From an uncultured Clostridia bacterium (lineage in GTDB: Bacteria; Bacillota; Clostridia; Christensenellales; UBA1242): 64,000 nt of DNA. The stretch spans positions 55,503 to 119,502 of the forward strand of contig CANRIT010000003.1 of the NCBI GenBank assembly GCA_947630745.1, in the 5' to 3' direction. Below the pieces are notes generated by a model, which saw only the letters and a program-made list of their open reading frames with translations, did no database searches and had not been told where the DNA came from. The position numbers and the translations under genes are program-made. Shown here piece after piece: positions 12,026 through 49,396 of the stretch. Positions within the stretch are counted from its first letter, which is position 1. Each line of letters starts with the position of its first letter.

Positions 12026-12165
12026 TATCCATAAAGAGTGTGCGAGGGACAGCCCCGTTGACCACACAGCAACCTGCTTTAAGCAAGGTGCTAATGGCTG
12101 ACCGATGGGTTTAATTTGATTTTTGCGCTCATCGGTAACGATGGGTTTTTTCATCTCTTTATGGT
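12026..12165 (+). promoter_or_regulatory. SAM-I (S-box) riboswitch leader of metK
   Basis: P1 CCATAAAGAG (12029-12038) pairs with CTCTTTATGG (12155-12164). Conserved core GAGGGA..GCCCC..GCAACC..AAGGTGCTAA present. Extended -10 TGTTATAAT at 12012-12020. Sits upstream of metK. Confidence 0.8.
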
Positions 12166-12181: not shown

Positions 12182-13276
12182 ATGATAAAATTTATCACCA
12201 GCGAATCGGTGAACATTGGACATCCGGACAAAACATGCGACACAATTGCGGATGCGTTTTTAGATGAGGCGCTTAGGCAGGATAAAAACAGCCAAATGGC
12301 GGTTGAATGCGCAATTAAAAACAACAAATTATTCATCTATGGCGAGGCGACAACAAAGGCAAAAATTAACTACAATAAAATTGCGCGGCAGGTTTTAAGC
12401 GAGATTGGGTACAAAAATCATTTTAAAATTATTAAAGAGATTTCACACCAAAGCCCGGATATAAATCAAGCCGTGGTAAAAAACAAGCTTATGGCAAATG
12501 ACCAAGGGATAATTTATGGTTACGCTTGCAACGAAACGGACGAGTTTATGCCGCTGCCAATTTTGATTGCTCACAAACTTATGAAAAGGTATGACGATTT
12601 TAGGCGCACAACCAGCACATATTTTGCCGATGCAAAAGCGCAAGTTTCGGTTAAGTACGAAGATGATGTGCCGCTTGAAATTACCACAATCTTAATAAGT
12701 GTATCGCATCACAAAAATTTAACTCAGCAGCAGATTGAAAACGAAATCAAATCAAATGTAATCATGCCAGTTTTGCAAAATTTTCCGCGATTTAAATTAG
12801 ACAACACGCGCTTTATAATCAACCCAAGTGGCAAATTTACAATTTGGGGAAGTTTTGGTGACAGTGGCTGTGTTGGCAGAAAAATTGTGGTGGATAGTTA
12901 TGGCGGAATAGGTCGAGTTGGCGGTGGCTGTTTCAGTTCCAAAAACGCAACCAAAGTTGATAGGTCAGCTGCATATTATTGTAGATATGTAGCAAAAAAT
13001 ATTGTGGCACACAATTTATGCGATAGGTGCGAAATTTCAGTTGCATATTCAATAGGTATGGAAAATCCAATTTCAATAAACATAGATTGTTTTAACTCAA
13101 ACAAAATACCCATGGAGGGTATATATAATTTTGTTAATAATAATTTTAATTTCAGCCTTAACAACATTATCGACGAACTAAATCTGTTAAATCCAATCTA
13201 TAAACAGACTGCATGTTATGGTCATTTTGGAAATGCAAGCTACCCATGGGAAAAGATTAAACAATGCAAAATTTAA
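12182..13276 (+). CDS. metK: S-adenosylmethionine synthetase
   Basis: SESVNIGHPDKTCD N-terminus, GDSGCVGRKIVVDSYGG and GGGCFSSKNATKVDRS motifs. 364 aa, slightly short for the family. Confidence 0.9.
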   Translation: MIKFITSESVNIGHPDKTCDTIADAFLDEALRQDKNSQMAVECAIKNNKLFIYGEATTKAKINYNKIARQVLSEIGYKNHFKIIKEISHQSPDINQAVVKNKLMANDQGIIYGYACNETDEFMPLPILIAHKLMKRYDDFRRTTSTYFADAKAQVSVKYEDDVPLEITTILISVSHHKNLTQQQIENEIKSNVIMPVLQNFPRFKLDNTRFIINPSGKFTIWGSFGDSGCVGRKIVVDSYGGIGRVGGGCFSSKNATKVDRSAAYYCRYVAKNIVAHNLCDRCEISVAYSIGMENPISINIDCFNSNKIPMEGIYNFVNNNFNFSLNNIIDELNLLNPIYKQTACYGHFGNASYPWEKIKQCKI

Positions 13277-18483: not shown

Positions 18484-18815
18484 ATGTAATAGTTTGTAAA
18501 CATAAAAATAGCATTTTTATTTATACGGACTTTTGTGTTAAATTTGTAAAATACTATAAAATTATAATCAAATTACGCTGATTTGTTATATATGATAATA
18601 ATGTGATAGTTTGTAAGCATAAAAAAATTGCATTCTATATGTACCCATTTTTGTGTTAAGATTAAATCTGTTTATAAATATAATTAAAATTAACTTTTTT
18701 GATATAGTATAATGTAATAGTTTGTAAATTATAAAAATAGCATTTTTATTTTGTGTGTATTTTTGTGCTAAGTTTAGATTTGTCAAGAATTATATATGAT
18801 TATAATCAAATTGCA
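18484..18815 (+). repeat. Three degenerate tandem repeats of ~111-117 bp
   Basis: Units start at 18484, 18601 and 18712 with the shared core ATGTRATAGTTTGTAARCATAAAAATAGCATTTTTAT..TTTTGTGYTAARTTT. ATTATAATCAAATT recurs at 18561 and 18798. Confidence 0.75.
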
Positions 18816-19124: not shown

Positions 19125-19201
19125 TGAGATGTAGCTCAGCAGGTTAGAGCACCACCCTGATAAGGTGGGGGTCGGTGGTTCGAGTCCACTCATCTCAACC
19201 A
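19125..19201 (+). tRNA. tRNA-Ile (anticodon GAT), CCA encoded
   Basis: Manual cloverleaf with acceptor TGAGATG/CATCTCA, anticodon stem CCACC/GGTGG, loop CTGATAA, T-loop TTCGAGT. Confidence 0.88.
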
Positions 19202-19250
19202 GATCGCCACCTTATATGGAACAAAGTGAAATATAAGTGGGGCGAGGTGA

Positions 19251-19265
19251 TGAGTCCACTCATCT
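19251..19265 (+). repeat. Degenerate partial copy of the tRNA-Ile 3' part (copy 1)
   Basis: GAGTCCACTCATCT (19252-19265) is identical to tRNA positions 19182-19195. Upstream, CCACCTTATATGGA...GTGGGGCGAGGTGA mimics the anticodon stem through the T-stem. Confidence 0.7.
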
Positions 19266-19346
19266 AAGTAGGGTAACCTACTTTTTTTAGACCCCCACCT
19301 TATACGGAATATAATGTAGTATAAAGAACAGGGTCGTGAGGTCCAA

Positions 19347-19365
19347 AGTCCACTCATCTCAACCA
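19347..19365 (+). repeat. Partial copy of the tRNA-Ile 3' end (copy 2, 19 nt identical including CCA)
   Basis: AGTCCACTCATCTCAACCA is identical to 19183-19201. It is preceded by GGGTCG and CCACCTTATACGGA, as in copy 1. Confidence 0.8.
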
Positions 19366-19390
19366 AGCGGGCGACACGCCCTCTTTTATC

Positions 19391-21289: not shown

Positions 21290-21679
21290 ATGAGCAAAAT
21301 AAAGTCTGTATCATCAAATATTTTACCAATTTTAAAAAGCGTGCTAATTGGCATTGCAACCACTTTGGCGGGAATTGTTATTTTTGCGCTTGTGCTTAAA
21401 TTTACCAACATAAATGCAAACGCGGTAACCTATGTAAACGACATAATTAAAGGGATTGCAATATTTTTAATGATTTTTGCGCTTAAAAGGAAATCTAACA
21501 GCCAACTTTTTGTTAAAAGTATAATTGCGGGCTTAATTTACGCGGTTTTAAGCTTTGTTATATTCTCTATTTTAAACGGCGGATTTAATTTTAACATCAC
21601 CTTTTTGTACGATTTAATTTTTGCAATAATTGTTGCCGCAGTTGCTAGCGTGATTTTAAGCTTATTCCACAAAAACTAG
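21290..21679 (+). CDS. Small integral membrane protein (4 TM, possibly TIGR04086-like)
   Basis: 129 aa with four hydrophobic segments and SD AAAGGAG. The family assignment is from memory only. Confidence 0.5.
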   Translation: MSKIKSVSSNILPILKSVLIGIATTLAGIVIFALVLKFTNINANAVTYVNDIIKGIAIFLMIFALKRKSNSQLFVKSIIAGLIYAVLSFVIFSILNGGFNFNITFLYDLIFAIIVAAVASVILSLFHKN

Positions 21680-21726
21680 TATTCGTTGATTAACTTGGCA
21701 AAACTAGTAAGTGCAGTCGACCAAGT

Positions 21727-21823
21727 GGGGGCGGGACTTTAAACCGAGCCGCCGCGGGCGGCTTGGTTTGGCGGGGTGCGTGGCACCCCGCAATTTGCGT
21801 TCTGCAAATCAAGTCCCGCCCCC
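21727..21823 (+). other. GC-rich four-way-junction (cloverleaf-like) palindromic element of unknown class
   Basis: 13-bp closing helix at 21727-39/21811-23, enclosing hairpins at 21741-69 (13 bp), 21772-90 (8 bp) and 21793-809 (6 bp). Strongly GC-rich inside an AT-rich spacer. Confidence 0.6.
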
Positions 21824-21973
21824 GAATAAGCCCCCGTTTTCTGTCAATAATTACAAATAAGCAAACTTTTTACAATTTTTTTGGTTTTTTAGTTAAATAA
21901 TTAAGTTTAAACTTTTTAAATTGTTTGACAATTATATTATATTTAGATATAATTATTTAAAATTAGGAGTAGT

Positions 21974-23311
21974 ATGACTAAAAGAAAATCTAAGGGCTTA
22001 TTTGTAGTTTTTTCTATAATTCTAACCATATTGCTTGTGGCAAGTTTTTTCAACTTTACTTATCCATTTACAATAAAAGGTGTTTATTATAGATACACAA
22101 GCTTTTTATCCAGTTTCAGTTTGGGCGAAGATGTAGGCAAATCGGTTAGGATAGTCTATCGTGCCGAACAAGAGGATGACCAGCAGAATGAATCGTATAT
22201 TAAGCTGCGCCATTCCACCATAAATCAATTGCACCAAATTGCAACCGATGCGGGATACAGCGATGTTACAGTTGCAACTTATGGTGAAAACGGCATAACT
22301 TTGCAGGTGGGCAACATCTTAACGCGTGAAGATGAGCAGTATATTCAAGCGCTAATTGGCAATCCAGCGCCAATAGTTTTTTGCGCATCTAACGACAAAA
22401 CCCAGTATTTTGCCAATCGCCACGATGTTGCAAGCGTAACCATGACGCAAAACGCAAGTCAAACCGGCGGCACAGACTATGGCATAACCATAACTTTTAA
22501 AAACAAACAAAAAGTGCTTGATGCAATCCGTGATGACTCGGGCAATATAACGGGCAATTTGTATGTATTTTTGGGCGACCAAACGCTTATGAATGGCGAT
22601 TTAAGTTTGTCCAGTTATGAGGAATTATTAGAGCAAAGCGGTCAAATCACATTCACCAGCAGTTCGTTTGAAGATGCCAACCAAACACAAGAATACATCA
22701 ACACCATCCGCACCGGCCTGCTTGATTTAAATTTAACTCAAATTGAATCCAACACCATCACACCAAGTTATGGGCAGAAGGCGGCACTACTGATAACAAT
22801 TGCAATTTTGGTTTTTGTGCTTGCATCGTTTATCTATTTAATTGTAAGGTATGGTCAACTTGGTTGGCTTAGTTGCTTTACGCTTTTGTTCTTTATAACA
22901 ATAAGCATGTTTATTATGCAATCAATTCCAATTTTGCATGTAAACTTCTCTGGCTTTATTGGTATGGTTATTGCTTATATCGTTGCGTTTGACAGTTTGG
23001 TTTGCGTGCTGGAAAGTACTCGCACTTACTATAATTCGGACACAAAACTTTACATTGCGCTTACTCAAAGCAGAAAAGACCATTTAATCCGCACACTAAT
23101 TTCCAACTTGTTGCTTGCAGTAACTGGAGTGATTTGTGTGTTTATGCCAGTGGCGGGACTGTCTTCGTTCGGCTGGCCAATGCTTATTATGCCAATTGTA
23201 AGTTTGTTCACTTCACTTGTGCTGTTTAGGTTGTTTACAAACATGTATTTGCCACTAAATTCTTACGATGGCAAAAAATGCAACTTCCACAAAGGAGGCA
23301 AAAATGCTTAA
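21974..23311 (+). CDS. secD: Protein translocase subunit SecD (divergent)
   Basis: N-terminal TM, large extracytoplasmic domain, six C-terminal TM helices with a SecD/F-type segment IGMVIAYIVAFDSLVCVLES. Followed by secF with an 8-nt overlap. Confidence 0.7.
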   Translation: MTKRKSKGLFVVFSIILTILLVASFFNFTYPFTIKGVYYRYTSFLSSFSLGEDVGKSVRIVYRAEQEDDQQNESYIKLRHSTINQLHQIATDAGYSDVTVATYGENGITLQVGNILTREDEQYIQALIGNPAPIVFCASNDKTQYFANRHDVASVTMTQNASQTGGTDYGITITFKNKQKVLDAIRDDSGNITGNLYVFLGDQTLMNGDLSLSSYEELLEQSGQITFTSSSFEDANQTQEYINTIRTGLLDLNLTQIESNTITPSYGQKAALLITIAILVFVLASFIYLIVRYGQLGWLSCFTLLFFITISMFIMQSIPILHVNFSGFIGMVIAYIVAFDSLVCVLESTRTYYNSDTKLYIALTQSRKDHLIRTLISNLLLAVTGVICVFMPVAGLSSFGWPMLIMPIVSLFTSLVLFRLFTNMYLPLNSYDGKKCNFHKGGKNA

Positions 23312-24254
23312 ACGAGATTTTTCTAAGCCAGTTAAACAATATTTTAACAAAAACAAATTTGTGTTAATAGGTGTGTTGGCTTTCTTTTTGCTGGCAATAA
23401 TTATTGGCGCAATTTTTGGTATGAATGGCAATTTTGAATTTAAAAATCATCAACAATTTGCCGTGCGCGTGTCGGGTGCAAGCGCAAAATCTTATGTTGA
23501 TGATGTGCAAAATATAGTCAACAAAGCGGGCGGAAAGTTTGATAGTTACCAGATATTTTCAAGTGGGGACAACACCCAAATTGTGGTGCGCTACAACAAA
23601 TTGTTAAGCGAGCAAAAGCAGCAAGAAATTAACGACCAAATAGAAGCCCTTTCAAAAGACAACATTCAGCTTAAAATTATAAAAACCTTATCTTCCACTG
23701 GGCATGAAACAGTCGGCAAAGTGGTTAATTACAAACATTACACCTTTACAGCCGTGTCAATTTTAATTTTGCTTGTGGCGGCAATTATCTTTGCTTACAT
23801 TAGATATAACGGGGCAAGCGCAATTGCAATTTTGTTTGCATCGCTTTTTGCCACGGCGGGCTACATTGCAGTTGGCGCAATTTTGCGGCTTACAATTGGG
23901 CAAAGTTATTTTGCAATGCTGGTGGCATTAAATGTGCTTACAATATACTGCACCATAATGTTGTTTGAAAACATCCGCTCAACCAATTGGCTGGTTAGCG
24001 AGCAGTACGACATGGCAATAGATGAGGGCATCAAAAAATCCAAACTAAGGCTGTTTATAATTTCAATCGCCTTGTTTGTGGCGGGATTGTTGTTTGTTAT
24101 CATCGCACCAAACAGCATAAAATATATCTCAATCAACCTGCTATTTATGGCAGTGACATTGCTTGCAGTTATGCTTTATGTTGTACCTTTTGTGTGGAAT
24201 ATCTTTATCCCTTACCGCAAAAAAGCAGTTAAAATCAAAAAAGAAAGCAAATAA
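23304..24254 (+). CDS. secF: Protein translocase subunit SecF (divergent)
   Basis: ATG 23304 follows AGGAGG. SecF-like topology with LTIYCTIMLFENIRS corresponding to the GYSxNDTIVxFDRIRE segment. Confidence 0.65.
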   Translation: MLKRDFSKPVKQYFNKNKFVLIGVLAFFLLAIIIGAIFGMNGNFEFKNHQQFAVRVSGASAKSYVDDVQNIVNKAGGKFDSYQIFSSGDNTQIVVRYNKLLSEQKQQEINDQIEALSKDNIQLKIIKTLSSTGHETVGKVVNYKHYTFTAVSILILLVAAIIFAYIRYNGASAIAILFASLFATAGYIAVGAILRLTIGQSYFAMLVALNVLTIYCTIMLFENIRSTNWLVSEQYDMAIDEGIKKSKLRLFIISIALFVAGLLFVIIAPNSIKYISINLLFMAVTLLAVMLYVVPFVWNIFIPYRKKAVKIKKESK

Positions 24255-31944: not shown

Positions 31945-31971
31945 AGGGGTGTGGGAGAAAAGGAGAAAAAT

Positions 31972-33075
31972 ATGACAAAGGAACAAATACGTTTAAAAGT
32001 TATTGATTATCTAAATGACAATCCAAGTATTTTAAAAGAGTTTGCAACTGTCAGGAGTGCTAGATTAAAATTGGAGGCAGATTTAAATCTGAACTACCCT
32101 TCATATGATGAGGTAACAATACAAAAAGTTATAACTGAGGTAGGAAATTGTAATGTCGAAGCGGTTGCTGATGATTTAATGAAAGGGCTCGCTTTTATGG
32201 GATATGGCGACGAGGACTATCACAAAGAACAATTAGAGGAATGCAAAAATAAAACTGACGAAGATTGCTATATATACTCAGTTTTTGATTGTGAAACCTG
32301 TAAAAAGTTGGGTACTTTTATTTCAACATATAAATCTTATCAAGAAAATATCGCTCTTGGTGGAGAACACAAAGAAAAGGTAGAAAAAATATACAATAGC
32401 GGTCTTGCTAAACGCGAACAGCATATAAAACATGGTAGAGAGATATTTAACGACTTTATAGCAAGATTTCAGGCTGCGTTGGAAAGAGACAAGCAAGATG
32501 ACATGCAGATGGATGAAATTATTCCTAGAAGAATAAATGATATGATCAAAGATGAAAAAACTCACATTGCCATGTTAAATAAAATTGAATATGCGGATGG
32601 CATTGTTGAAAAAGTATTTGATTTATTAGGTCAAAACATTCCTAAAAAGCAAGCACAAAAGATAGATAAAATTATAGAAATGAATGATGCAACCTTGGTT
32701 AATAACGTTTTAGATCGTTTAAAAGAAAATCCTACAAAAAACTTTATTGATTTAGGTAAAGTTTTGCTACAAACACCAGCACAAAATCCTGAAGAACTAA
32801 AATGGATGAAGGCTTTAGATGTTGCAGAAATGGTGACGGGTACAATTTTAACAGCAACTGGAATATTTACAAGTACGTTAACAGGCAATATTTCTTCTTT
32901 ATCTGTTACATTACCAGGTTTTGGTCTTATAGGATTGGGATTTGCTGGAATAAATCGGCATATTAAAAAAGCAAAAATTTGGGCTGAAAGAGATAGATTG
33001 GTTTCTTGTTGTGTTAATGATTTTCTTCATGAGGTTGAAGTTGAAAAAGCGATGCAAGCGGGATTAACAAATTAA
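31972..33075 (+). CDS. Hypothetical protein (367 aa): helical soluble region plus C-terminal Gly/Thr-rich transmembrane hairpin
   Basis: ATG 31972 follows AAAGGAGAAAAA. C-terminal VTGTILTATGIFTSTLTGNISSLSVTLPGFGLIGLGFAGI. AT-rich codon usage (AGA, GGA, TTA) unlike its neighbours. Confidence 0.6.
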   Translation: MTKEQIRLKVIDYLNDNPSILKEFATVRSARLKLEADLNLNYPSYDEVTIQKVITEVGNCNVEAVADDLMKGLAFMGYGDEDYHKEQLEECKNKTDEDCYIYSVFDCETCKKLGTFISTYKSYQENIALGGEHKEKVEKIYNSGLAKREQHIKHGREIFNDFIARFQAALERDKQDDMQMDEIIPRRINDMIKDEKTHIAMLNKIEYADGIVEKVFDLLGQNIPKKQAQKIDKIIEMNDATLVNNVLDRLKENPTKNFIDLGKVLLQTPAQNPEELKWMKALDVAEMVTGTILTATGIFTSTLTGNISSLSVTLPGFGLIGLGFAGINRHIKKAKIWAERDRLVSCCVNDFLHEVEVEKAMQAGLTN

Positions 33076-36893: not shown

Positions 36894-38519
36894 TTACACA
36901 TTCATGCCGTCATCGTGGTGGAAGAAGTTGCGGGTGTTTTCTCTGCGCCTTTCGTGGTTTGAATACATTTTAGGATTGCGTTTGTATTTTAAATCATCAT
37001 CAAACCTTTTTTGCATTGCGGATAGCATTGCAGATTTCCTTTTTTCTTCTTTATCATATTCTTCGCGTTTTGCGTCAACAATGGCTTTAAATTTTTCCCA
37101 TTCCTCATTGTAAATTTTGTCAACTTCTTCTTGCTGCATCCCTTGTTCAATAAGTTCGGAAATATATTCTTTTGCCAACAAATATCTGGTTTCGGCAATC
37201 TGTTTCATTGGCTCGCTGTCTTTAACGAAATTTTTGCATGGGGTTTTTGTAAGTTCTAAGTAAAACTCAGCAAGTTGAACGTTTTGCGAGCTGGTGTCGT
37301 ATTTTGTATTAGTATCGATTTTGTCTAAATTTTCTGCCGGTTTCTCTTCATCATTTTTAATATCTTCAGCTGCGTTATTGATTTCATCTAAGTTATTTTT
37401 ATCCGCCTTTGCACCATCATCCACAACTTGTTTGCGTGTTAGTCGCGCATATCTATCGGCGATGTTCTTTTTGAAAGTTTTAAAATCTTCGCTGCACGAT
37501 TTTGCAAACGAAACCATCTTCCAATATCCCTTTTTGTCCGAAGTAAATTTTATGTAGTCGGCTAGGGTGGTCACGCCTTGATTCATCAGATAGTTAAGCA
37601 AAGGTTCAGCCGTGCTAGGAACAAGGTTTTCTATGCTTAAATTGTCTTTTTCCAGCACAGTTTTAACCGCTTTCGTTATCATAAATTCATCTTTCTTGGT
37701 GGTGGCTTTACTAACCAAACCGCCACTATTTTTGTTGGCTTTTGGCTTGGCTTTTGCTTCTTCTGGCAACTTTAACAAGCCGTCTTCTTCCAAATTTTTA
37801 ATATGCGCCATAACATTGTCTAAAAACACGGTGTACGCGTTTTCATAGTTGACTTTGCAGTTGTGGTGAAATTTGTTGAAATACTCTTTGTTTGCCGCAA
37901 ATTTTGCAAAATCGCCAAGCGTTTTAACATTGCGCTTATACAAATAGTTTGCCATCAATGGGCAATCGGTAGGGATAAATTTGTCAATAGGGGTGGTGTC
38001 CAAAGTTAAATACGCTATGTAACTTTTAAATTTTGCAGTGGTAACCTTAATTGGGTCGTCAAACAAATTGTATTTGCTTGCCTCAATGTCGGATTTTGAC
38101 TTTGATTCCCTTTCTTCCTCGCGCAACTCAGTTGCCAATTCTTCTTGCAAATTTTTTAAATCGGACATTATAAAATCGGTAACCTTAAATTTGTCCGCAT
38201 ATAAAGTGTTTGCCGCAAGTTTAAGATTTTTAACAAGTGTGCCCATTTCTTCCATTCTGGCGGTTTTGGTGCTATCCATAAATGTTGGATTGTATTTAGC
38301 CAGCAACTGCCTTATATTATCTTCAAACAGAAAAAACTCTGGACAATCTAAAAACAATTTCCAAACAAAATTAGAAGTGATAGTTTTGCCCAAAATTCTA
38401 CCAACCGTGCGCGCTCTTGCTTCTTCAACTGAGCGGGCTGGTTGCCAAGATGTGTTTTTTATACATTTAATAAGTTCATCAGGTGATTTTTCTGACCTTT
38501 TTTGTCTATTATTACTCAT
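36894..38519 (-). CDS. Hypothetical protein (541 aa) with two internal HhH-like repeats resembling the RNA polymerase alpha C-terminal domain
   Basis: ATG 38519 follows a GGGGG SD. Repeats are CPLMANYLYKRNVKTLGDFAKF and EPLLNYLMNQGVTTLADYIKF. Charged coiled-coil linkers and a basic C-terminus. Confidence 0.65.
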   Translation of the reverse strand: MSNNRQKRSEKSPDELIKCIKNTSWQPARSVEEARARTVGRILGKTITSNFVWKLFLDCPEFFLFEDNIRQLLAKYNPTFMDSTKTARMEEMGTLVKNLKLAANTLYADKFKVTDFIMSDLKNLQEELATELREEERESKSKSDIEASKYNLFDDPIKVTTAKFKSYIAYLTLDTTPIDKFIPTDCPLMANYLYKRNVKTLGDFAKFAANKEYFNKFHHNCKVNYENAYTVFLDNVMAHIKNLEEDGLLKLPEEAKAKPKANKNSGGLVSKATTKKDEFMITKAVKTVLEKDNLSIENLVPSTAEPLLNYLMNQGVTTLADYIKFTSDKKGYWKMVSFAKSCSEDFKTFKKNIADRYARLTRKQVVDDGAKADKNNLDEINNAAEDIKNDEEKPAENLDKIDTNTKYDTSSQNVQLAEFYLELTKTPCKNFVKDSEPMKQIAETRYLLAKEYISELIEQGMQQEEVDKIYNEEWEKFKAIVDAKREEYDKEEKRKSAMLSAMQKRFDDDLKYKRNPKMYSNHERRRENTRNFFHHDDGMNV

Positions 38520-38538
38520 AATTTCCCCCAACAAATAT

Positions 38539-41931: not shown

Positions 41932-42762
41932 ATGCAAAAGTTGGAGTTTGTTTTAAAAGAAGATAAAAAGTTGGTTAAGGCGATTATTGATGAATTGCCA
42001 TTTCTTTCGCGCTATGATGTAAAAAAGATTTTAGACAACAAGGATGTTAAAGTAAACAATGTTCGCGTTAAGGCGGATTGTGATGTTTTTGCGGGGAATA
42101 AGATTGTGGTTTTTTACACCCCAAAACAAGACAAAGAGTGGTTTATTCCCGTTTATCAAGACGAAAATATCCTTATTGTAAACAAGCGCGCGGGCATTGA
42201 AGTTGTAAGCGAAAACGAACGCGATTTGCTGTCTGTTTTAAAGCAGAATTTTGGCGAAATTTACGCGGTGCACCGCTTGGATAGAAATACGGAAGGGTTA
42301 ACAATTTTTGCACTTAACTTAAAGGCAAAAAGTGTGCTTGATGATGCCTTTAAAAATCGCAAAGAGATAACAAAAAAATACGCGCTTTTGGTCCATGGGC
42401 GGGTTGACATAGCAAAAATTAAGCGCACGGTTTACTTAAAAAAAGTAGAAAATTTGTCAAAAGTTTGGATAAGCGAACTTAAAACCAGCGGCTATGACCC
42501 AATTGTAACCGAATTTACCCCGATTGAATATAGGGGAGAAAACACGCTGCTAGAAGCCAATTTGGTTACTGGCAAAACCCACCAAATCCGCTCCCATATC
42601 GCATATTACGGCCACCCAATAGTAGGCGACAACAAATACGGCAAGGACAACGAAAAAACCCTGCACCTTACCGCCAACTATCTTTCCTTTTCCTTCAAAA
42701 AAGGCAGCCCGCTAAGCTACCTAAACACCAAATCCTTCGAAATCATCCCAAGTTGGCTTTAA
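41932..42762 (+). CDS. RluA-family pseudouridine synthase (RluD-like)
   Basis: S4-like N-terminus, catalytic HRLDRNTEGL, GKTHQIRSH. Confidence 0.85.
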   Translation: MQKLEFVLKEDKKLVKAIIDELPFLSRYDVKKILDNKDVKVNNVRVKADCDVFAGNKIVVFYTPKQDKEWFIPVYQDENILIVNKRAGIEVVSENERDLLSVLKQNFGEIYAVHRLDRNTEGLTIFALNLKAKSVLDDAFKNRKEITKKYALLVHGRVDIAKIKRTVYLKKVENLSKVWISELKTSGYDPIVTEFTPIEYRGENTLLEANLVTGKTHQIRSHIAYYGHPIVGDNKYGKDNEKTLHLTANYLSFSFKKGSPLSYLNTKSFEIIPSWL

Positions 42763-43949
42763 TGCTTTTTAATACATTTTAAAAATTTAAAATTATCAGA
42801 AATATTTGCTAAAAGGTTATCTGTATTTTCAATTTCAAATATTTCTTGGCTTTTTTCTGCATACTGAGTTTGAGATAATATTAGCTCTTGTGATATATTG
42901 TTGTTTTTGTCTAACAGCAAAATACCCGTTCCAATCCAGAAATCTGTGTTGCTTGCTGCAGTAGATTTGAGATGTAGTCCGCCGTCAGTAGGAGATGCAC
43001 AAGGGGATTTTCCCCAAGTCCCAAACAAAGATATTGCATTTGGCCTTTCCCAAAAATTAATTCGCAGTTCATAATCGGCAGCCAAAAAACATTCATTATT
43101 TATTCTTGCTTCAATAATTAATTTGTTAATTTCTTCTTCATTTAAATTTGAATAATCAGTTGTTCCGTTAACTAAAAAGTTGGTTTTTGCTCTTTTAAAC
43201 CAAATTTCTTTTCCTTCGTTTGATAGATTATTATAAGTGGCTTTCATTTCGTCATGATAATCTTTCATGCGGTTGTATAAATCTTGTGGGGTATATAAAT
43301 CTCTTGCAATAATTAAATTATAATCTAATTTTACACCATTTGCTTGGTAAATTTTGTCTGTAAAATATTTTAAAAGTGCCTTAAAAGTTTTGGTGTATCT
43401 ATCAGTTGTTGCTTGTGGCACATTGTTAAATTGTATAGAAATTTCTTCACTTTCGTATTCAAATTTAACACCATATTTGTATTTGGTTATTATTGGCCAT
43501 AAAAATGTGGTCATGTATTTCATGTGAAAAAGTTCAGCCAAATCAACTTCTGGATAGGATGGAGAGTTATAGTTTTTGTAGCCGCCAAAGCCAAAAATAA
43601 AAATGATTGGTTGTTTATTAGTAAAAGAATATATTAACTTATCAATTGTTAGTGAAATGGCCAAATTTGCTTGCTTACTTCCAGAAAATTTTGCAGATAA
43701 TAGGCGCGACAAAAAATCCAACAACAAATTTTTATCATTATTATTTAACTTTGCAAGTTTTGCTCTTTGTTCCAAAACAAAACTTAATTTGTCTTTAACT
43801 TTGTCATCGTCAATTGGCAAATTCATTTCTTTTGCAATCCAATTTATAAAAAGATTCGTATCTTCAGTTGAAAAGCGTAAACATTTTATTAAAGCAGAAT
43901 CGTTTGATTTTGCATTAGATACATCAATTTTAAAATAATTATCAAACAT
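42759..43949 (-). CDS. Hypothetical protein (396 aa), AT-rich orphan next to the tRNA cluster
   Basis: Own promoter (TGTGATATAAT) and AGAGG SD. No family assigned with confidence. 4-nt overlap with the convergent rluD-like gene end. Confidence 0.6.
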   Translation of the reverse strand: MFDNYFKIDVSNAKSNDSALIKCLRFSTEDTNLFINWIAKEMNLPIDDDKVKDKLSFVLEQRAKLAKLNNNDKNLLLDFLSRLLSAKFSGSKQANLAISLTIDKLIYSFTNKQPIIFIFGFGGYKNYNSPSYPEVDLAELFHMKYMTTFLWPIITKYKYGVKFEYESEEISIQFNNVPQATTDRYTKTFKALLKYFTDKIYQANGVKLDYNLIIARDLYTPQDLYNRMKDYHDEMKATYNNLSNEGKEIWFKRAKTNFLVNGTTDYSNLNEEEINKLIIEARINNECFLAADYELRINFWERPNAISLFGTWGKSPCASPTDGGLHLKSTAASNTDFWIGTGILLLDKNNNISQELILSQTQYAEKSQEIFEIENTDNLLANISDNFKFLKCIKKH

Positions 43950-47905: not shown

Positions 47906-47939
47906 AAACAAAAAATGCAAAACTAATTTTGCATTTTTC
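47906..47939. terminator. Bidirectional terminator between convergent sigF and the lipoprotein gene
   Basis: ATGCAAAA-ctaa-TTTTGCAT, flanked by an A-run and a T-run. Confidence 0.75.
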
Positions 47940-49396
47940 TATTTGCCGATTAAGTTTTTTACGCGTGTTTTAAAATTTTTAATTCTGGCAATTGGAGTGG
48001 GAGTGTCCGCGTTGCGGAAAGTGTCAACATTTTTAATTAATCGCTTTTTTGATTTTTTGTTTGTGTCCGTTTGATTGTTATTTTCATCATTTACAGCGTT
48101 GTTTTCTTCCACAACATTTGGTGTATTATACGCTCTATCTACACCATAATTATTGCCTAGCATGTTGTTGTAACCATAGCCATTAAAGCCGTTTTCCATG
48201 CCATACATTCCATTAAAACCAAAACCATTCATTCCGTTTGCTGTGTTGTAAAAAGTGTCAATGTTGCGCTGCCTTGGATAGAATGTGTCAATATTGCTGT
48301 TTAAAAATTGACCATTTTGATTGTTGTTTTGATTATTTTCACCTTGTTCATTATTGTTGTTTTGTTTATCGTCATTGTTTTGCTGATTTTGTTCATCCGC
48401 TTGATTTTGCTCTTTATTATCAACTTCTAAATTATTTTGTTTACTATCAATGTCCGTTTTTTCAGTGTTTTCTTCATCTTTGTTATCTATTTGTTTATTT
48501 TCTTCTTTATTAATTGTATCTTCTTTATTTTCTAAATTATTGGTTTCTTCGCTTAAATTTGGCTGAATTTCTGTGTTTTCTGCTTTGTTTATCTCGGTCA
48601 GTTTGCCGTCTTTAAGTTCAAATTCCTTATATATTGATGGTTCACCTTCCTTTTGATAGCGGTAGGTTATTTTACCTTCCATATTATTCAATCGATTAGC
48701 GTAAAAGGTCTGATTTATTTGCTCAATCGAATGCAGCCCATTTTCAATCATCTCGTTGCCGTCCACCAAATTGTTTAAAATTACCAAATATTTAAGCGGC
48801 ATAAACCCAATATTTTGGTTCAATTCATCTATATTGTAGTTTAATTTGCTTGTTATATGTGTCAATTGTCGTGATAGTGAGCGCAATTGTTTTGTTTGGT
48901 CGGCAAGCATCATTTTTTGTTCGGAATTTAGTGTAATCTCTTTGTTTTTCACCTTGTTTAGCAAATTTTCCGTTTCGTTTATTGCGTTTATAATCTCGTT
49001 TTTAAGCGCGGTATAACGCTGGCAATTTTCCTTTATATCGGTCGATAGATTATATAGGGTCAAATCATCGATTTCCGCCTTTTCAACCGAACTATCCAGC
49101 TCATCATTTACAATAGGGTTGCCATTTTCATCCAATTTAACAATCGGTTCGCTCAAATTTTTGTCAGTTATTGGCGAAATCTCCAATTTGTAATTATTCA
49201 ATATGTTGTATGGATTGCCACTTGACAACACATCATGTTTATAATTTGTAATACTTTCCTTTAAATCCGCAATGTTGGATTTGTTGTCATTATGGTTTAA
49301 GTTGTTTGAGCAGCCAGTAAGCAAAACACCCGCACCCAAAAGCACAACGGCGGGCAGTATTTTTTTAATTTTTGATGATTTTTTACTATTTTTCAT
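47939..49396 (-). CDS. Lipoprotein (485 aa) with coiled-coil region and Asn/Gln-rich low-complexity C-terminal half
   Basis: Signal peptide with lipobox LLTGC. N/Q/D-rich tract. Three (N/S)(I/V)DTF repeats near the C-terminus. Confidence 0.7.
   Translation of the reverse strand: MKNSKKSSKIKKILPAVVLLGAGVLLTGCSNNLNHNDNKSNIADLKESITNYKHDVLSSGNPYNILNNYKLEISPITDKNLSEPIVKLDENGNPIVNDELDSSVEKAEIDDLTLYNLSTDIKENCQRYTALKNEIINAINETENLLNKVKNKEITLNSEQKMMLADQTKQLRSLSRQLTHITSKLNYNIDELNQNIGFMPLKYLVILNNLVDGNEMIENGLHSIEQINQTFYANRLNNMEGKITYRYQKEGEPSIYKEFELKDGKLTEINKAENTEIQPNLSEETNNLENKEDTINKEENKQIDNKDEENTEKTDIDSKQNNLEVDNKEQNQADEQNQQNNDDKQNNNNEQGENNQNNNQNGQFLNSNIDTFYPRQRNIDTFYNTANGMNGFGFNGMYGMENGFNGYGYNNMLGNNYGVDRAYNTPNVVEENNAVNDENNNQTDTNKKSKKRLIKNVDTFRNADTPTPIARIKNFKTRVKNLIGK

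What the first reader, a model, noticed from the sequence alone, without database searches (positions are those of the whole stretch)
21727..21836. Unique GC-rich ~97-nt element folding into a perfect four-way junction upstream of secD
A ~290-bp AT-rich spacer separates a small membrane-protein gene from secD. Within it, one segment is conspicuously GC-rich and almost entirely self-complementary.

By inspection it forms these helices:
- Closing helix GGGGGCGGGACTT (21727-39) with AAGTCCCGCCCCC (21811-23), 13 perfect bp.
- Arm 1 AAACCGAGCCGCC-gcg-GGCGGCTTGGTTT (21741-69), 13 bp with one G-U.
- Arm 2 CGGGGTGC-gtg-GCACCCCG (21772-90), 8 bp.
- Arm 3 ATTTGC-gttct-GCAAAT (21793-809), 6 bp.

Junction linkers are only 1-2 nt, so the shape is a cloverleaf with oversized arms. 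Downstream, GCCCCC (21830-35) followed by GTTTT could pair with the 5' G-run as an alternative.

It has no T-loop or anticodon features and no motif of any riboswitch class I can recall. No second copy exists in the window. Plausible identities are a structured ncRNA, a cis-regulatory leader of secDF, or a DNA-level element such as a cruciform recombination site or a MITE-like palindrome.
Basis: seen in the sequence. Interest (0 to 1): 0.7.

Follow-up and report, generated by a model that had tools for sequence, protein, structure and literature searches.

The report
Cloverleaf-shaped palindromic repeat at gene ends
The GC-rich four-armed fold is real, but it is not a unique secD leader: it is one copy of a small, previously undescribed family of structured palindromic repeats that sit just after genes in a few related gut Clostridia and most likely act as end-of-transcript terminator or insulator modules.

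Summary
Window 21726-21824 folds into a near-perfect four-way junction (43 pairs, 2 unpaired junction bases, z -6.6). It matches no Rfam family and is not a tRNA.

- **Position.** The element lies upstream of secD's own perfect, conserved sigma-70 promoter (21925-21953). It is therefore the 3' region of the DUF3792 gene, not an obvious secD leader.
- **Uniqueness.** It is single-copy in the window, but four more copies exist in two related genomes. Two are orthologues at the same site. Two lie after der, upstream of plsY, in the opposite orientation, with almost the same 13-bp closing helix but different arms.
- **Distribution.** Five more distant relatives lack it at the secD site. One of them, with the same gene order, is empty at both sites.

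Stems evolve by compensatory changes: 7 double changes against 5 broken pairs between window and L075 (P about 3e-5). Loops evolve freely.

Best reading: a lineage-restricted, MITE/REP/SPRITE-like structured repeat. It was gained twice in an ancestor and then retained. Its central hairpin plus U-rich tail serves as a terminator, and the full fold serves as an RNA end-cap or insulator. The function is inferred, not shown.

I rate it a new variant of a known kind, of moderate interest.

The parts
21726..21739 (+). P1 5' strand (closing helix), T-GGGGGCGGGACTT. This is the left terminal inverted repeat of the element.
   Evidence: Pairs with 21811-21824 in the MFE and centroid folds. The same 13-mer closes the second-site copy in L001. 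Its 3' partner AAGTCCCGCCCC is present in the contig-end-truncated copy in L075.
21740..21770 (+). P2 arm: 13-14 bp, GCG triloop, one internal G.U.
   Evidence: Four pairs are changed on both sides in L075 while pairing is kept.
21771..21791 (+). P3 arm: 9-bp G+C-rich hairpin with a GTG loop. This is the terminator-like core.
   Evidence: Flagged by the terminator scan with tail AATTTGCGTT. The orthologous hairpin in L001 is also flagged, with tail GTTTGCTTTA. GGGG/CCCCG and the following TTTGC are invariant in the three orthologues.
21792..21810 (+). Junction A, the P4 arm (ATTTGC-gttct-GCAAAT) and junction C. The 5' half of P4 is the U-rich tail that follows P3.
   Evidence: ATTTG/CAAAT is kept in L075. 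L001 has GTTTG/TAAAC, an A-U to G-C double change.
21811..21824 (+). P1 3' strand, AAGTCCCGCCCCC-G. This is the right terminal inverted repeat.
21830..21840 (+).
   Evidence: Present in the window. It is replaced by CCACCCAAATT in L075 and TGCATAAAATT in L001, so it is not part of the conserved element.
21290..21679 (+). Upstream gene: DUF3792 / TIGR04086 small membrane protein. The element lies 47 nt after its stop codon.
   Evidence: Pfam PF12670 E 1.2e-11. NCBIfam TIGR04086 E 5.5e-10, above its cut-off.
21925..21953 (+). Sigma-70 promoter of secD (TTGACA-17 nt-TATAAT), 100 nt downstream of the element.
   Evidence: 12/12 consensus match. The block is conserved in L001 and L075. Equivalent promoters are present in the outgroups.
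21974..24254 (+). Divergent secD (21974-23311) and secF (23268-24254), the downstream transcription unit.
   Evidence: NCBIfam SecD/SecF models give E 3e-18 and 5e-14, both below cut-off. PDB SecD gives E 1.5e-7. There is no Pfam hit. The yajC-DUF3792-X-Y-recJ gene order in relatives supports the assignment.

Best explanation
The element is one copy of a small, lineage-restricted family of palindromic intergenic repeats of about 85-100 bp. Each copy has a 13-bp terminal inverted repeat (consensus GGGGGCGGG[A/G]CTT ... AAG[T/C]CCCGCCCCC). This closes three internal hairpins, so either strand folds as a compact four-way junction.

Copies were gained at two intergenic sites in the ancestor of a genus-level clade of uncultured spore-forming gut Clostridia. 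One site is just after der and the other just after the DUF3792 gene. The two copies have opposite orientations. They have been kept since then with their pairing maintained.

In the window the element lies in the 3' untranslated region of the DUF3792 gene, upstream of secD's own promoter.

Most likely mode of action (inferred): it is co-transcribed with the upstream gene and works as an orientation-tolerant end-of-transcript module.
- The central G+C-rich hairpin (P3) with its U-rich tail acts as an intrinsic terminator.
- On transcripts that read through, the complete four-way fold forms. This very stable block would protect the upstream mRNA 3' end from exonucleases and insulate the secD promoter from upstream transcription.

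Shown here: the fold, the family, the two sites, the orientation, the empty sites, the compensatory evolution, and the position relative to the promoter.

Inferred: transcription, termination, stabilisation, and how the element spread.
For: **Fold.**
- Window: z -6.6.
- L075 orthologue: z -5.0.
- L001 second-site copy: z -5.4 on the plus strand and -5.0 on the minus strand.
- L001 orthologue: z -2.5, same architecture.

**Family.**
- A covariance model built from the window copy alone finds L001:1189-1274 (40.8 bits, E 1.8e-5) and L075:2738-2835 (65.8 bits, E 5e-11).
- A model built from window + L075 finds both der-plsY copies (35.7 and 32.7 bits, both better on the minus strand) and the diverged L001 orthologue (24.7 bits).

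**Position.** Copies start 5-47 nt after a stop codon. The secD promoter lies downstream of the element and is conserved.

**Terminator-like core.** P3 plus its tail passes the terminator scan in the window and in L001. No other hairpin terminator lies between the DUF3792 gene and the secD promoter.

**Structural constraint.**
- Window versus L075 on an alignment not fitted to the structure: 30 pairs identical, 7 changed on both sides and still paired, 5 broken.
- Paired columns are 75% identical; unpaired columns are 31% identical.
- Simulating the same 21 substitutions placed at random gives 14.6 broken pairs on average. P(5 or fewer broken) = 3e-5. P(7 or more kept double changes) < 1e-5.
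- Three orthologues: 83% of cells paired and 13 pairs with double changes. With partners slid by 1-3 columns these fall to 33-51% and 1-4.

**Gain, not ancient inheritance.** Outgroup spacers L002, L003, L073 and L074 lack the element. L078 has the same der-plsY-tatD-DUF3792-secD order and both sites are empty.

**Precedent.** REP/BIME elements affect mRNA stability. SPRITE is a repeat of about 105 bp with a Rho-independent-terminator-like motif near gene 3' ends (PMC3184786).
Against: - There are no expression data, so no 3' end has been mapped.
- The U-tract after P3 is weak in the window (AAUUUGCGUU). Plain terminators nearby have six or more U.
- If termination at P3 were efficient, the 3' strand of P1 would seldom be transcribed. 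Conservation of P1 pairing is then not explained by termination alone.
- The middle hairpin of the der-plsY copy was not flagged by the terminator scan.
- Wobble and mismatch asymmetry gives no strand call. The window has G.U on the plus strand. L075 has two C/A mismatches on the plus strand that would be G.U on the minus strand.
- Only five instances in three genomes are known. Copy number per genome is unknown.
- The structure was derived from one of the aligned sequences, which favours it in the slid control.
Confidence: 0.5

Rival explanations
1. A selfish or neutral DNA palindrome (MITE/REP-like) with no host function. It spread by an unknown transposase or by duplication. The hairpins persist because palindromes are repaired towards perfection by intrastrand template switching during replication, or because only folded copies could be mobilised.
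For: - Conserved terminal inverted repeats with variable interiors, two sites, opposite orientations, and empty sites in an outgroup with the same gene order.
- Loops and junctions are unconstrained.
- Symmetric palindromic expansions occur between the L001 and L075 der-plsY copies.
- Both strands fold equally well.
- Template-switch correction of quasi-palindromes is established knowledge (my own knowledge, not tested here).
Against: - Both sites have been retained in all sampled clade members that cover them. SecD has diverged to 75% identity over the same period.
- No target-site duplication is visible.
- No transposase was found among the window ORFs checked.
- Copy density is low: 1 in 64 kb, 2 in 21 kb, 0 in 20 kb.
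- The diverged L001 orthologue changed its P1 sequence yet kept the pairing. This looks more like selection on structure than selection on a transposase-binding sequence.
Confidence: 0.2
2. A new structured non-coding RNA class: a four-way junction RNA made from the 3' UTR or from its own promoter. It would act in trans or bind a protein through the conserved G/C-rich closing helix.
For: - Strong, statistically supported compensatory evolution in all four helices.
- No Rfam family matches.
- The P1 sequence is conserved between paralogous sites in different genomes.
- A G+C-rich island in an AT-rich spacer is the classic signature used to find ncRNAs.
Against: - No promoter-like site lies upstream on either strand, and there is no dedicated terminator (sequence).
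- No unpaired nucleotides are conserved and the loops are only 3-5 nt, leaving no obvious interaction surface.
- Arm order is inverted at the second site relative to the direction of the flanking genes.
- Distribution is very narrow.
Confidence: 0.12
3. A DNA-level site: a cruciform or four-way structure used by a recombinase, or a scar of integrative elements whose ends copy a tRNA 3' end.
For: - AAGTCCCGCCCC reads like a tRNA T-loop/T-stem/acceptor 3' strand.
- In metagenome contig L044 an analogous closing helix is an inverted plus direct copy of the 3' end of the adjacent tRNA-Leu.
- The window itself carries two extra direct copies of the tRNA-Ile 3' half just upstream of plsY. This shows integrase activity in this lineage.
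- The strand symmetry of the fold fits a DNA-level role.
Against: - None of the 11 window tRNAs matches P1, and no tRNA in related loci does either.
- The P1 flanks lack CCA.
- No integrase or recombinase gene is adjacent to the element.
- The repeats are inverted, not the direct repeats that integration leaves.
- Rfam tRNA and ARAGORN do not see tRNA-like features.
Confidence: 0.08
4. A cis-regulatory 5' leader (riboswitch or attenuator) of secDF, as the finding's title implies.
For: - It lies in the spacer upstream of secD.
- It is highly structured and contains a terminator-like hairpin.
- Read-through from the DUF3792 gene could place it in a long secD 5' UTR.
Against: - A perfect conserved promoter lies between the element and secD.
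- Five outgroups keep that promoter and secD but lack the element.
- A sister copy follows der.
- There are no conserved unpaired bases to form a ligand pocket.
Confidence: 0.03

Closest known systems
[quoted passage not shown]
   Same: An intergenic repeat of about 100 bp in a low-G+C Firmicute. Its predicted fold contains a Rho-independent-terminator-like motif, it lies near gene 3' ends, and a role at the RNA level has been proposed (PMC3184786).
   Different: - No sequence relation was tested.
- SPRITE is multi-copy within one genome and biased to convergent gene pairs.
- Here only two sites are known, both between co-directional genes.
- Here the terminator-like hairpin is nested inside a closed four-way junction.
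REP / BIME / REPIN elements of Proteobacteria
   Same: G+C-rich extragenic palindromes that are co-transcribed at operon ends or between cistrons. They are known to affect mRNA stability (PMC3184786). Their structure matters more than their sequence.
   Different: - REPs are single imperfect hairpins of 20-40 nt with a GTAG or CGTC tag (PMC3733652 abstract).
- They occur in hundreds of copies and are linked to RAYT transposases.
- None of these features was found here.
Bacterial MITEs (Correia, ERIC, RUP, bcr1)
   Same: About 100-150 bp, terminal inverted repeats, intergenic, found in either orientation, with presence/absence between relatives (Table 1 of PMC3184786).
   Different: - No target-site duplication or partner IS was seen.
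- Copies are not near-identical. Only the 13-bp ends are shared, and the interiors differ completely in sequence while keeping three hairpins.
- Copy density is low.
Intrinsic (Rho-independent) terminators
   Same: The P3 hairpin plus a U-rich tail lies directly downstream of a stop codon. It is the only terminator-like feature in the spacer.
   Different: A plain terminator needs only one hairpin. Here it is flanked by two further hairpins and enclosed by a 13-bp helix whose 3' strand lies beyond the presumed termination point. The U-tract is interrupted.
Integron attC sites
   Same: These work in a similar way in one respect: short conserved inverted ends, a variable palindromic interior, and a constraint on the folded shape rather than on sequence (my own knowledge).
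   Different: - There are no RYYYAAC/GTTRRRY core sites.
- There is no integron integrase or cassette array.
- The context is chromosomal housekeeping genes.

Membership tests
Any Rfam 15 family (riboswitch, ribozyme, sRNA, leader) | Match to a family covariance model at or near the gathering score. | tested here: not met
   - There is no hit over 21727-21823 at gathering threshold.
- At E<=10 on 21500-22100 only chance-level hits appear (best 23 bits against a gathering score of 59).
- The same holds for the L001 second-site copy.
tRNA / tRNA-like element | Cloverleaf with a 7-bp acceptor stem, T-loop and anticodon loop, detectable by ARAGORN or RF00005. | tested here: not met
   - ARAGORN finds 11 tRNAs in the window, none at this position.
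- RF00005 gives no hit at E<=10.
- The arms are 13, 13, 9 and 6 bp with loops of 3, 3 and 5 nt.
- No tRNA 3' end matches P1.
cis-regulatory 5' leader / riboswitch of secDF | Located between the gene's promoter and its start codon. | tested here: not met
   The 12/12 sigma-70 promoter at 21925-21953 lies downstream of the element. It is conserved in the relatives.
cis-regulatory 5' leader / riboswitch of secDF | Conserved unpaired nucleotides, and association with the regulated gene across taxa. | tested here: not met
   - Unpaired columns are 4/13 identical between window and L075, against 64/85 for paired columns.
- The element is absent upstream of secD in 5 outgroup lineages.
- A paralogous copy follows der.
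Intrinsic terminator | G+C-rich hairpin immediately followed by a U-tract, downstream of a stop codon. | tested here: inconclusive
   - P3 passes the simple scan in the window and in L001.
- The U-tract is interrupted.
- The middle hairpin of the der-plsY copy is not flagged.
Intrinsic terminator | Transcript 3' ends map to the U-tract. | not testable with these tools
   No transcriptome data are available for this uncultured lineage.
MITE | Terminal inverted repeats shared between copies. | tested here: met
   GGGGGCGGGACTT / AAGTCCCGCCCCC in the window is matched by GGGGGCGGGACTT / AAGTCCCGCCaCC in L001 and by ...AAGTCCCGCCCC in L075.
MITE | Insertion polymorphism: filled versus empty sites, and both orientations. 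| tested here: met
   Both sites are empty in L078, which has the same gene order. The der-plsY copies score better on the minus strand, while the secD-site copies score better on the plus strand.
MITE | Target-site duplication, many near-identical copies, and a related autonomous IS. | tested here: not met
   - No flanking direct repeat is visible.
- Copy density is 1 in 64 kb, 2 in 21 kb and 0 in 20 kb.
- The interiors are unalignable between the two sites.
- No transposase was found among the ORFs checked.
- Whole genomes could not be scanned.
REP / REPIN (RAYT-mobilised) | Imperfect palindrome of 20-40 nt tagged by GTAG or CGTC, high copy number, and a RAYT gene. | tested here: not met
   - No GTAG or CGTC tag lies at the element ends in the window.
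- Copy density is low.
- A RAYT gene was not looked for genome-wide.
SPRITE | Sequence homology to the pneumococcal SPRITE consensus. | not tested
Only the functional resemblance is claimed.
Integron attC | R''/R' core sites (RYYYAAC ... GTTRRRY) and an adjacent integrase or cassette array. | tested here: not met
   The ends are GGGGGCGGGACTT/AAGTCCCGCCCCC. The neighbours are plsY, tatD, the DUF3792 gene, secDF and recJ.

The most novel reading that the evidence does not exclude
The elements could be a new class of structure-defined genetic element. It would be a four-way-junction RNA, or single-stranded DNA, whose conserved G/C-rich closing helix is recognised by a dedicated protein. That protein could be a structure-specific recombinase or transposase, as with attC-IntI or REP-RAYT, or an RNA-binding factor. 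The three arms would need only to be hairpins. The element would thus be both mobile and a functional RNA module that clade members have kept at operon boundaries.
Probability: 0.15. Interest if true: 0.65.

Novelty: new variant of a known kind. Interest (0 to 1): 0.4.

Why it matters
If this reading is right, a palindromic repeat was gained at two operon boundaries around plsY-tatD-DUF3792 and then kept under selection for its shape.

That would be a clear small-scale example of a mobile or duplicating palindrome being domesticated as a terminator or insulator in poorly known gut Clostridia.

It also provides a covariation-supported four-way-junction motif that is not in Rfam. It can be modelled and searched for once complete genomes of this clade are available.

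It does not reveal a new regulatory mechanism for secDF.

Tried and rejected
1. **Rfam.** Gathering and E<=10 searches on the window copy and on the L001 second-site copy found nothing.
2. **tRNA.** ARAGORN found nothing at this position.
3. **Plasmids and phages.** blastn of 21700-21850 against both collections gave no match.
4. **Pattern scan for the closing helix.** I used GGCGGGACTT N{45,75} AAGTCCCGCC.
   - Viral contigs gave one unrelated GC-rich phage sequence.
   - Metagenome contigs gave 60 loci. These are a mixed bag of long perfect palindromes, mostly in G+C-rich contigs. They score only 17-31 bits with the models, against 33-66 bits for the independently detected true copies at full power (24.7 for the diverged L001 orthologue), so I rejected them as family members.
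5. **Genome-contig scan with SecD.** It returned only the L001 contig. The window's own genome is not retrievable.
6. **P1 copied from a tRNA 3' end.** This idea was prompted by L044. No tRNA in the window or in related loci matches P1, so I kept it only as a low-probability rival.
7. **Strand assignment from G.U versus A/C asymmetry.** The signals are contradictory between copies, so I dropped it.
It is not conserved.
9. **MAFFT alignment of copies from the two sites.** It is not structurally meaningful because the interiors are unalignable. I used model-based alignment and manual inspection instead.
10. **Transposase or integrase next to the element.** None was found among 20 window ORFs scanned.
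11. **Literature searches.** Searches for a described cloverleaf or tRNA-like repeat in Clostridia found nothing specific.
Full report
**1. The observation**

RNAfold gives the same four-way junction as both the minimum-free-energy and the centroid structure, and it adds a terminal U.G pair to P1 and to P2. The result is 43 pairs in 99 nt (21726-21824) with only two unpaired junction bases.

The energy for 21700-21860 is -80.9 kcal/mol, against -53.6 +/- 4.1 for dinucleotide shuffles (z -6.6, 0 of 200 shuffles as good). The reverse strand folds just as well (z -7.1).

The window holds no second copy. A 13-mer search with up to 3 mismatches found none, and neither did a full covariance-model scan with filters off.

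**2. Context**

The gene order is plsY, tatD, a DUF3792/TIGR04086 membrane-protein gene (21290-21679), the element, then two ORFs followed by recJ.

The two ORFs are very divergent SecD and SecF:
- Pfam finds nothing.
- NCBIfam SecD/SecF models give E 3e-18 and 5e-14, both below their cut-offs.
- PDB SecD 5mg3 gives E 1.5e-7.
- The yajC-DUF3792-X-Y-recJ gene order in relatives agrees with the assignment.

The important point is a perfect TTGACA-17-TATAAT promoter at 21925-21953. It lies 100 nt downstream of the element and about 20 nt upstream of secD. This promoter block is nearly identical in the two closest relatives, and an equivalent promoter is present in every outgroup spacer I read. 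The element therefore belongs to the 3' end of the upstream transcription unit, not to the secD leader made from that promoter. No promoter-like site precedes the element on either strand.

**3. Known families**

Rfam 15 gives no match at gathering threshold, and only chance-level hits at E<=10. The same is true for a sister copy. ARAGORN finds no tRNA at this position. blastn against plasmid and phage collections finds nothing.

**4. Relatives**

The organism is an uncultured, spore-forming Clostridia lineage (spoIIGA, sigE and spoVAD are in the window). The lineage is sparsely sampled. The best SecD relative is 75% identical and all others are 52% or less.

| Copy | Genome / locus | Site | Key result |
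|---|---|---|---|
| Window | window 21726-21824 | after DUF3792 gene | reference copy |
| 'R' | L001/L072, GCA_947632645.1, rabbit-gut MAG | same site, 5 nt after the stop | diverged, still folds as a four-way junction; 16.9 bits with the window-only model, 24.7 bits with the two-sequence model |
| L001b | L001:1189-1274 | between der and plsY | 40.8 bits, E 1.8e-5, better on the minus strand |
| L075a | L075:2738-2835 (Logan contig, PlsY 82% identical) | after DUF3792 gene | 65.8 bits, E 5e-11; folds independently, z -5.0 |
| L075b | L075:1-58 | der-plsY site | 3' part only, cut by the contig end |

L001b has almost the same closing helix as the window copy (GGGGGCGGGACTT ... AAGTCCCGCCaCC). 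Its three arms have entirely different sequences but similar sizes, and it folds as a four-way junction on its own (z -5.4 and -5.0).

This makes five instances, at two sites, in three genomes. In L001 the two sites flank the plsY-orf-tatD-DUF3792 block, about 2.5 kb apart. In both genomes that hold a der-plsY copy, that copy is inverted relative to the secD-site copies.

In the window, synteny with L001 starts only at plsY. The der-plsY site is replaced by tRNA-Ala, tRNA-Ile and repeats of the tRNA-Ile 3' half.

**5. Distribution**

Four more distant relatives have AT-rich DUF3792-secD spacers with no G+C-rich element (L002, L003, L073 and L074, with SecD about 50% identical). Both models find nothing in them.

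L078 has PlsY 72% identical and the same der-plsY-orf-tatD-DUF3792-secD gene order. Both of its sites are empty: the der-plsY spacer is 81 nt and the DUF3792-secD spacer is an AT-rich 244 nt.

The simplest history is two gains in the ancestor of the window/L001/L075 clade, followed by retention. A 20-kb locus from another relative has no copy (L071).

**6. Structural constraint**

I compared window and L075 on a plain MAFFT alignment that was not fitted to any structure:
- 30 of 42 pairs are identical.
- 7 pairs are changed on both sides and still pair.
- No pair is changed on one side only while still pairing.
- 5 pairs are broken, three of them at helix ends.
- Paired columns are 64/85 identical. 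Loop and junction columns are only 4/13 identical.

I then placed the same 21 substitutions at random. This breaks 14.6 +/- 2.2 pairs on average. P(5 or fewer broken) is 3e-5, and none of 100,000 trials reached 7 kept double changes.

With the three orthologues:
- 83% of cells pair.
- 13 pairs carry a change on both sides.
- With the partners slid by 1-3 columns these drop to 33-51% and 1-4.
- 0 of 500 shuffles reach the observed values.

Caveats:
- There are only three related sequences.
- The structure was taken from one of them.
- The L001 row is partly misaligned in P1 and P2, which works against the structure rather than for it.

The pattern of constrained helices and free loops and junctions argues against a ligand-binding or catalytic RNA. 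It argues for a role in which the helices themselves are the point.

**7. Strand**

Wobble pairs do not settle the strand. The window has an internal G.U on the plus strand. L075 has two C/A mismatches on the plus strand that would be G.U on the minus strand.

The inverted arm order at the second site means that any function must tolerate either orientation. Alternatively, the interior may have flipped by recombination between the 13-bp inverted repeats; this is my inference.

**8. Wider searches**

I scanned for GGCGGGACTT N{45,75} AAGTCCCGCC. Viral contigs gave one unrelated phage sequence. Metagenome contigs gave 60 loci. These are heterogeneous long palindromes, mostly in G+C-rich DNA. They score no more than 31 bits with the window model and no more than 21 bits with the two-sequence model. 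I do not count them as members.

One of them, L044, is instructive. Its closing helix is an inverted plus direct copy of the 3' end of the neighbouring tRNA-Leu. The string AAGTCCCGCCCC is generally tRNA-3'-end-like. However, no tRNA available from this lineage matches P1, so that origin remains speculative.

**9. How it most likely works**

All copies begin 5-47 nt after a stop codon. In the secD-site copies the central arm P3 is a G+C-rich hairpin followed by an invariant UUUGC and further U. The terminator scan flags it in the window and in L001. No other terminator lies between the DUF3792 gene and the secD promoter.

I therefore propose the following:
- The element is transcribed as the 3' end of the upstream gene.
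- P3 gives some intrinsic termination.
- On read-through RNA the whole junction forms. P1 and P2 together offer about 27 stacked pairs. This would block 3'-exonucleases and insulate the strong secD promoter.

This is how REP/BIME elements are reported to behave, and how SPRITE is proposed to behave (PMC3184786).

Weak points:
- The U-tract is interrupted.
- P1's 3' strand lies beyond the presumed termination point.
- There are no expression data.

**10. Rivals**

- **Purely selfish or neutral palindrome kept paired by template-switch mutation (0.2).** It fits the inverted repeats, the two orientations and the empty sites. It fits less well with long retention at both sites and with pairing being kept while the P1 sequence drifts in L001.
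- **New ncRNA class (0.12).** It fits the covariation. It does not fit the lack of a promoter, the lack of conserved single-stranded bases, or the inverted arm order.
- **DNA-level recombination site or tRNA-end scar (0.08).** There is no matching tRNA or recombinase.
- **secDF riboswitch or leader (0.03).** It is contradicted by the promoter position and by the distribution.

**11. Comparison and verdict**

The element works most like terminator-type and REP-type intergenic repeats. It shares terminal inverted repeats and insertion polymorphism with MITEs. It fails the defining tests of each named family:
- no GTAG or CGTC tag;
- no target-site duplication;
- no high copy number;
- no partner transposase seen;
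- no Rfam model.

Its distinctive traits are the closed four-way junction, interiors that are hairpins of unrelated sequence, and statistically supported compensatory evolution.

I rate it a new variant of a known kind, of moderate interest (0.4). It is real, conserved within a narrow clade and not catalogued. It is probably a structural end-of-gene module rather than a new regulatory principle.

Noticed in passing
window 19159-19366: There are three direct copies of the tRNA-Ile(GAT) 3' half. One is the real gene end (19159-19201). Two are degenerate copies at 19229-19265 and 19323-19359, each followed by a repeated CCACCTTATA(T/C)GGAA segment. This looks like stacked attachment-site scars of integrative elements, at the place where relatives carry the der-plsY copy of the element.
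   Followed up: partly
window 18484-18812: Three tandem-like units of about 115 nt (ATGTAATAGTTTGTAAACATAAAAATAGCATTTTTATTT...) lie in a very AT-rich stretch (GC 0.26) just upstream of tRNA-Ala. Their function is unknown.
   Followed up: partly
window 21974-24254: The SecD/SecF pair is unusually divergent. It has no Pfam hit at E<=0.01 and falls below all NCBIfam cut-offs. More than 100 homologues in the protein database likewise carry almost no precomputed Pfam domain.
   Followed up: partly
window 12026-12147: A SAM-I riboswitch (65.5 bits) lies directly upstream of metK at 12182-13276. This is ordinary.
   Followed up: no
window 36894-38534, 42759-43949, 47939-49396 (minus strand) and 31951-33075: Four large ORFs (374-546 aa) have no Pfam family. 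Three of them are on the minus strand in a mostly plus-strand region.
   Followed up: no
L044 1135-1350 (metagenome contig Ga0209083_1019089): In a low-G+C contig, a structured palindrome of about 104 nt has an 18-bp closing helix that is an inverted plus direct copy of the 3' end of the adjacent tRNA-Leu(GAG). The two are separated by a terminator-like hairpin.
   Followed up: partly
L015, L030, L053, L065, L066, L069 (metagenomes Ga0209782 and Ga0209366): This is a multi-copy family of near-perfect palindromes of about 75-110 bp (…GTGGGCGGGACTTAGTTTCTCGTGGCACTGGCAGCC…). They are flanked by further inverted sequence (ACGCAATATATGTG / CACATATATTGCGT) and occur on several contigs of the same samples.
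   Followed up: no
L031 1075-1333; L042 2148-2400; L019 5433-5633: These contigs hold tandem arrays of structured G+C-rich units of 83-93 nt that share the GGCGGGACTT/AAGTCCCGCC ends. L031 has 3 units at 88-nt spacing. L042 has 2 at 160-nt spacing. L019 has 2 at 117-nt spacing. The L019 units end in GGGGTTCAAGTCCCGCC, which is tRNA-T-arm-like.
   Followed up: no
L072 8152-8454; L075 999-1397: Relatives carry an extra small ORF (100-132 aa, no Pfam) between plsY and tatD that is absent from the window. L078 has a 102-aa ORF there on the opposite strand.
   Followed up: no
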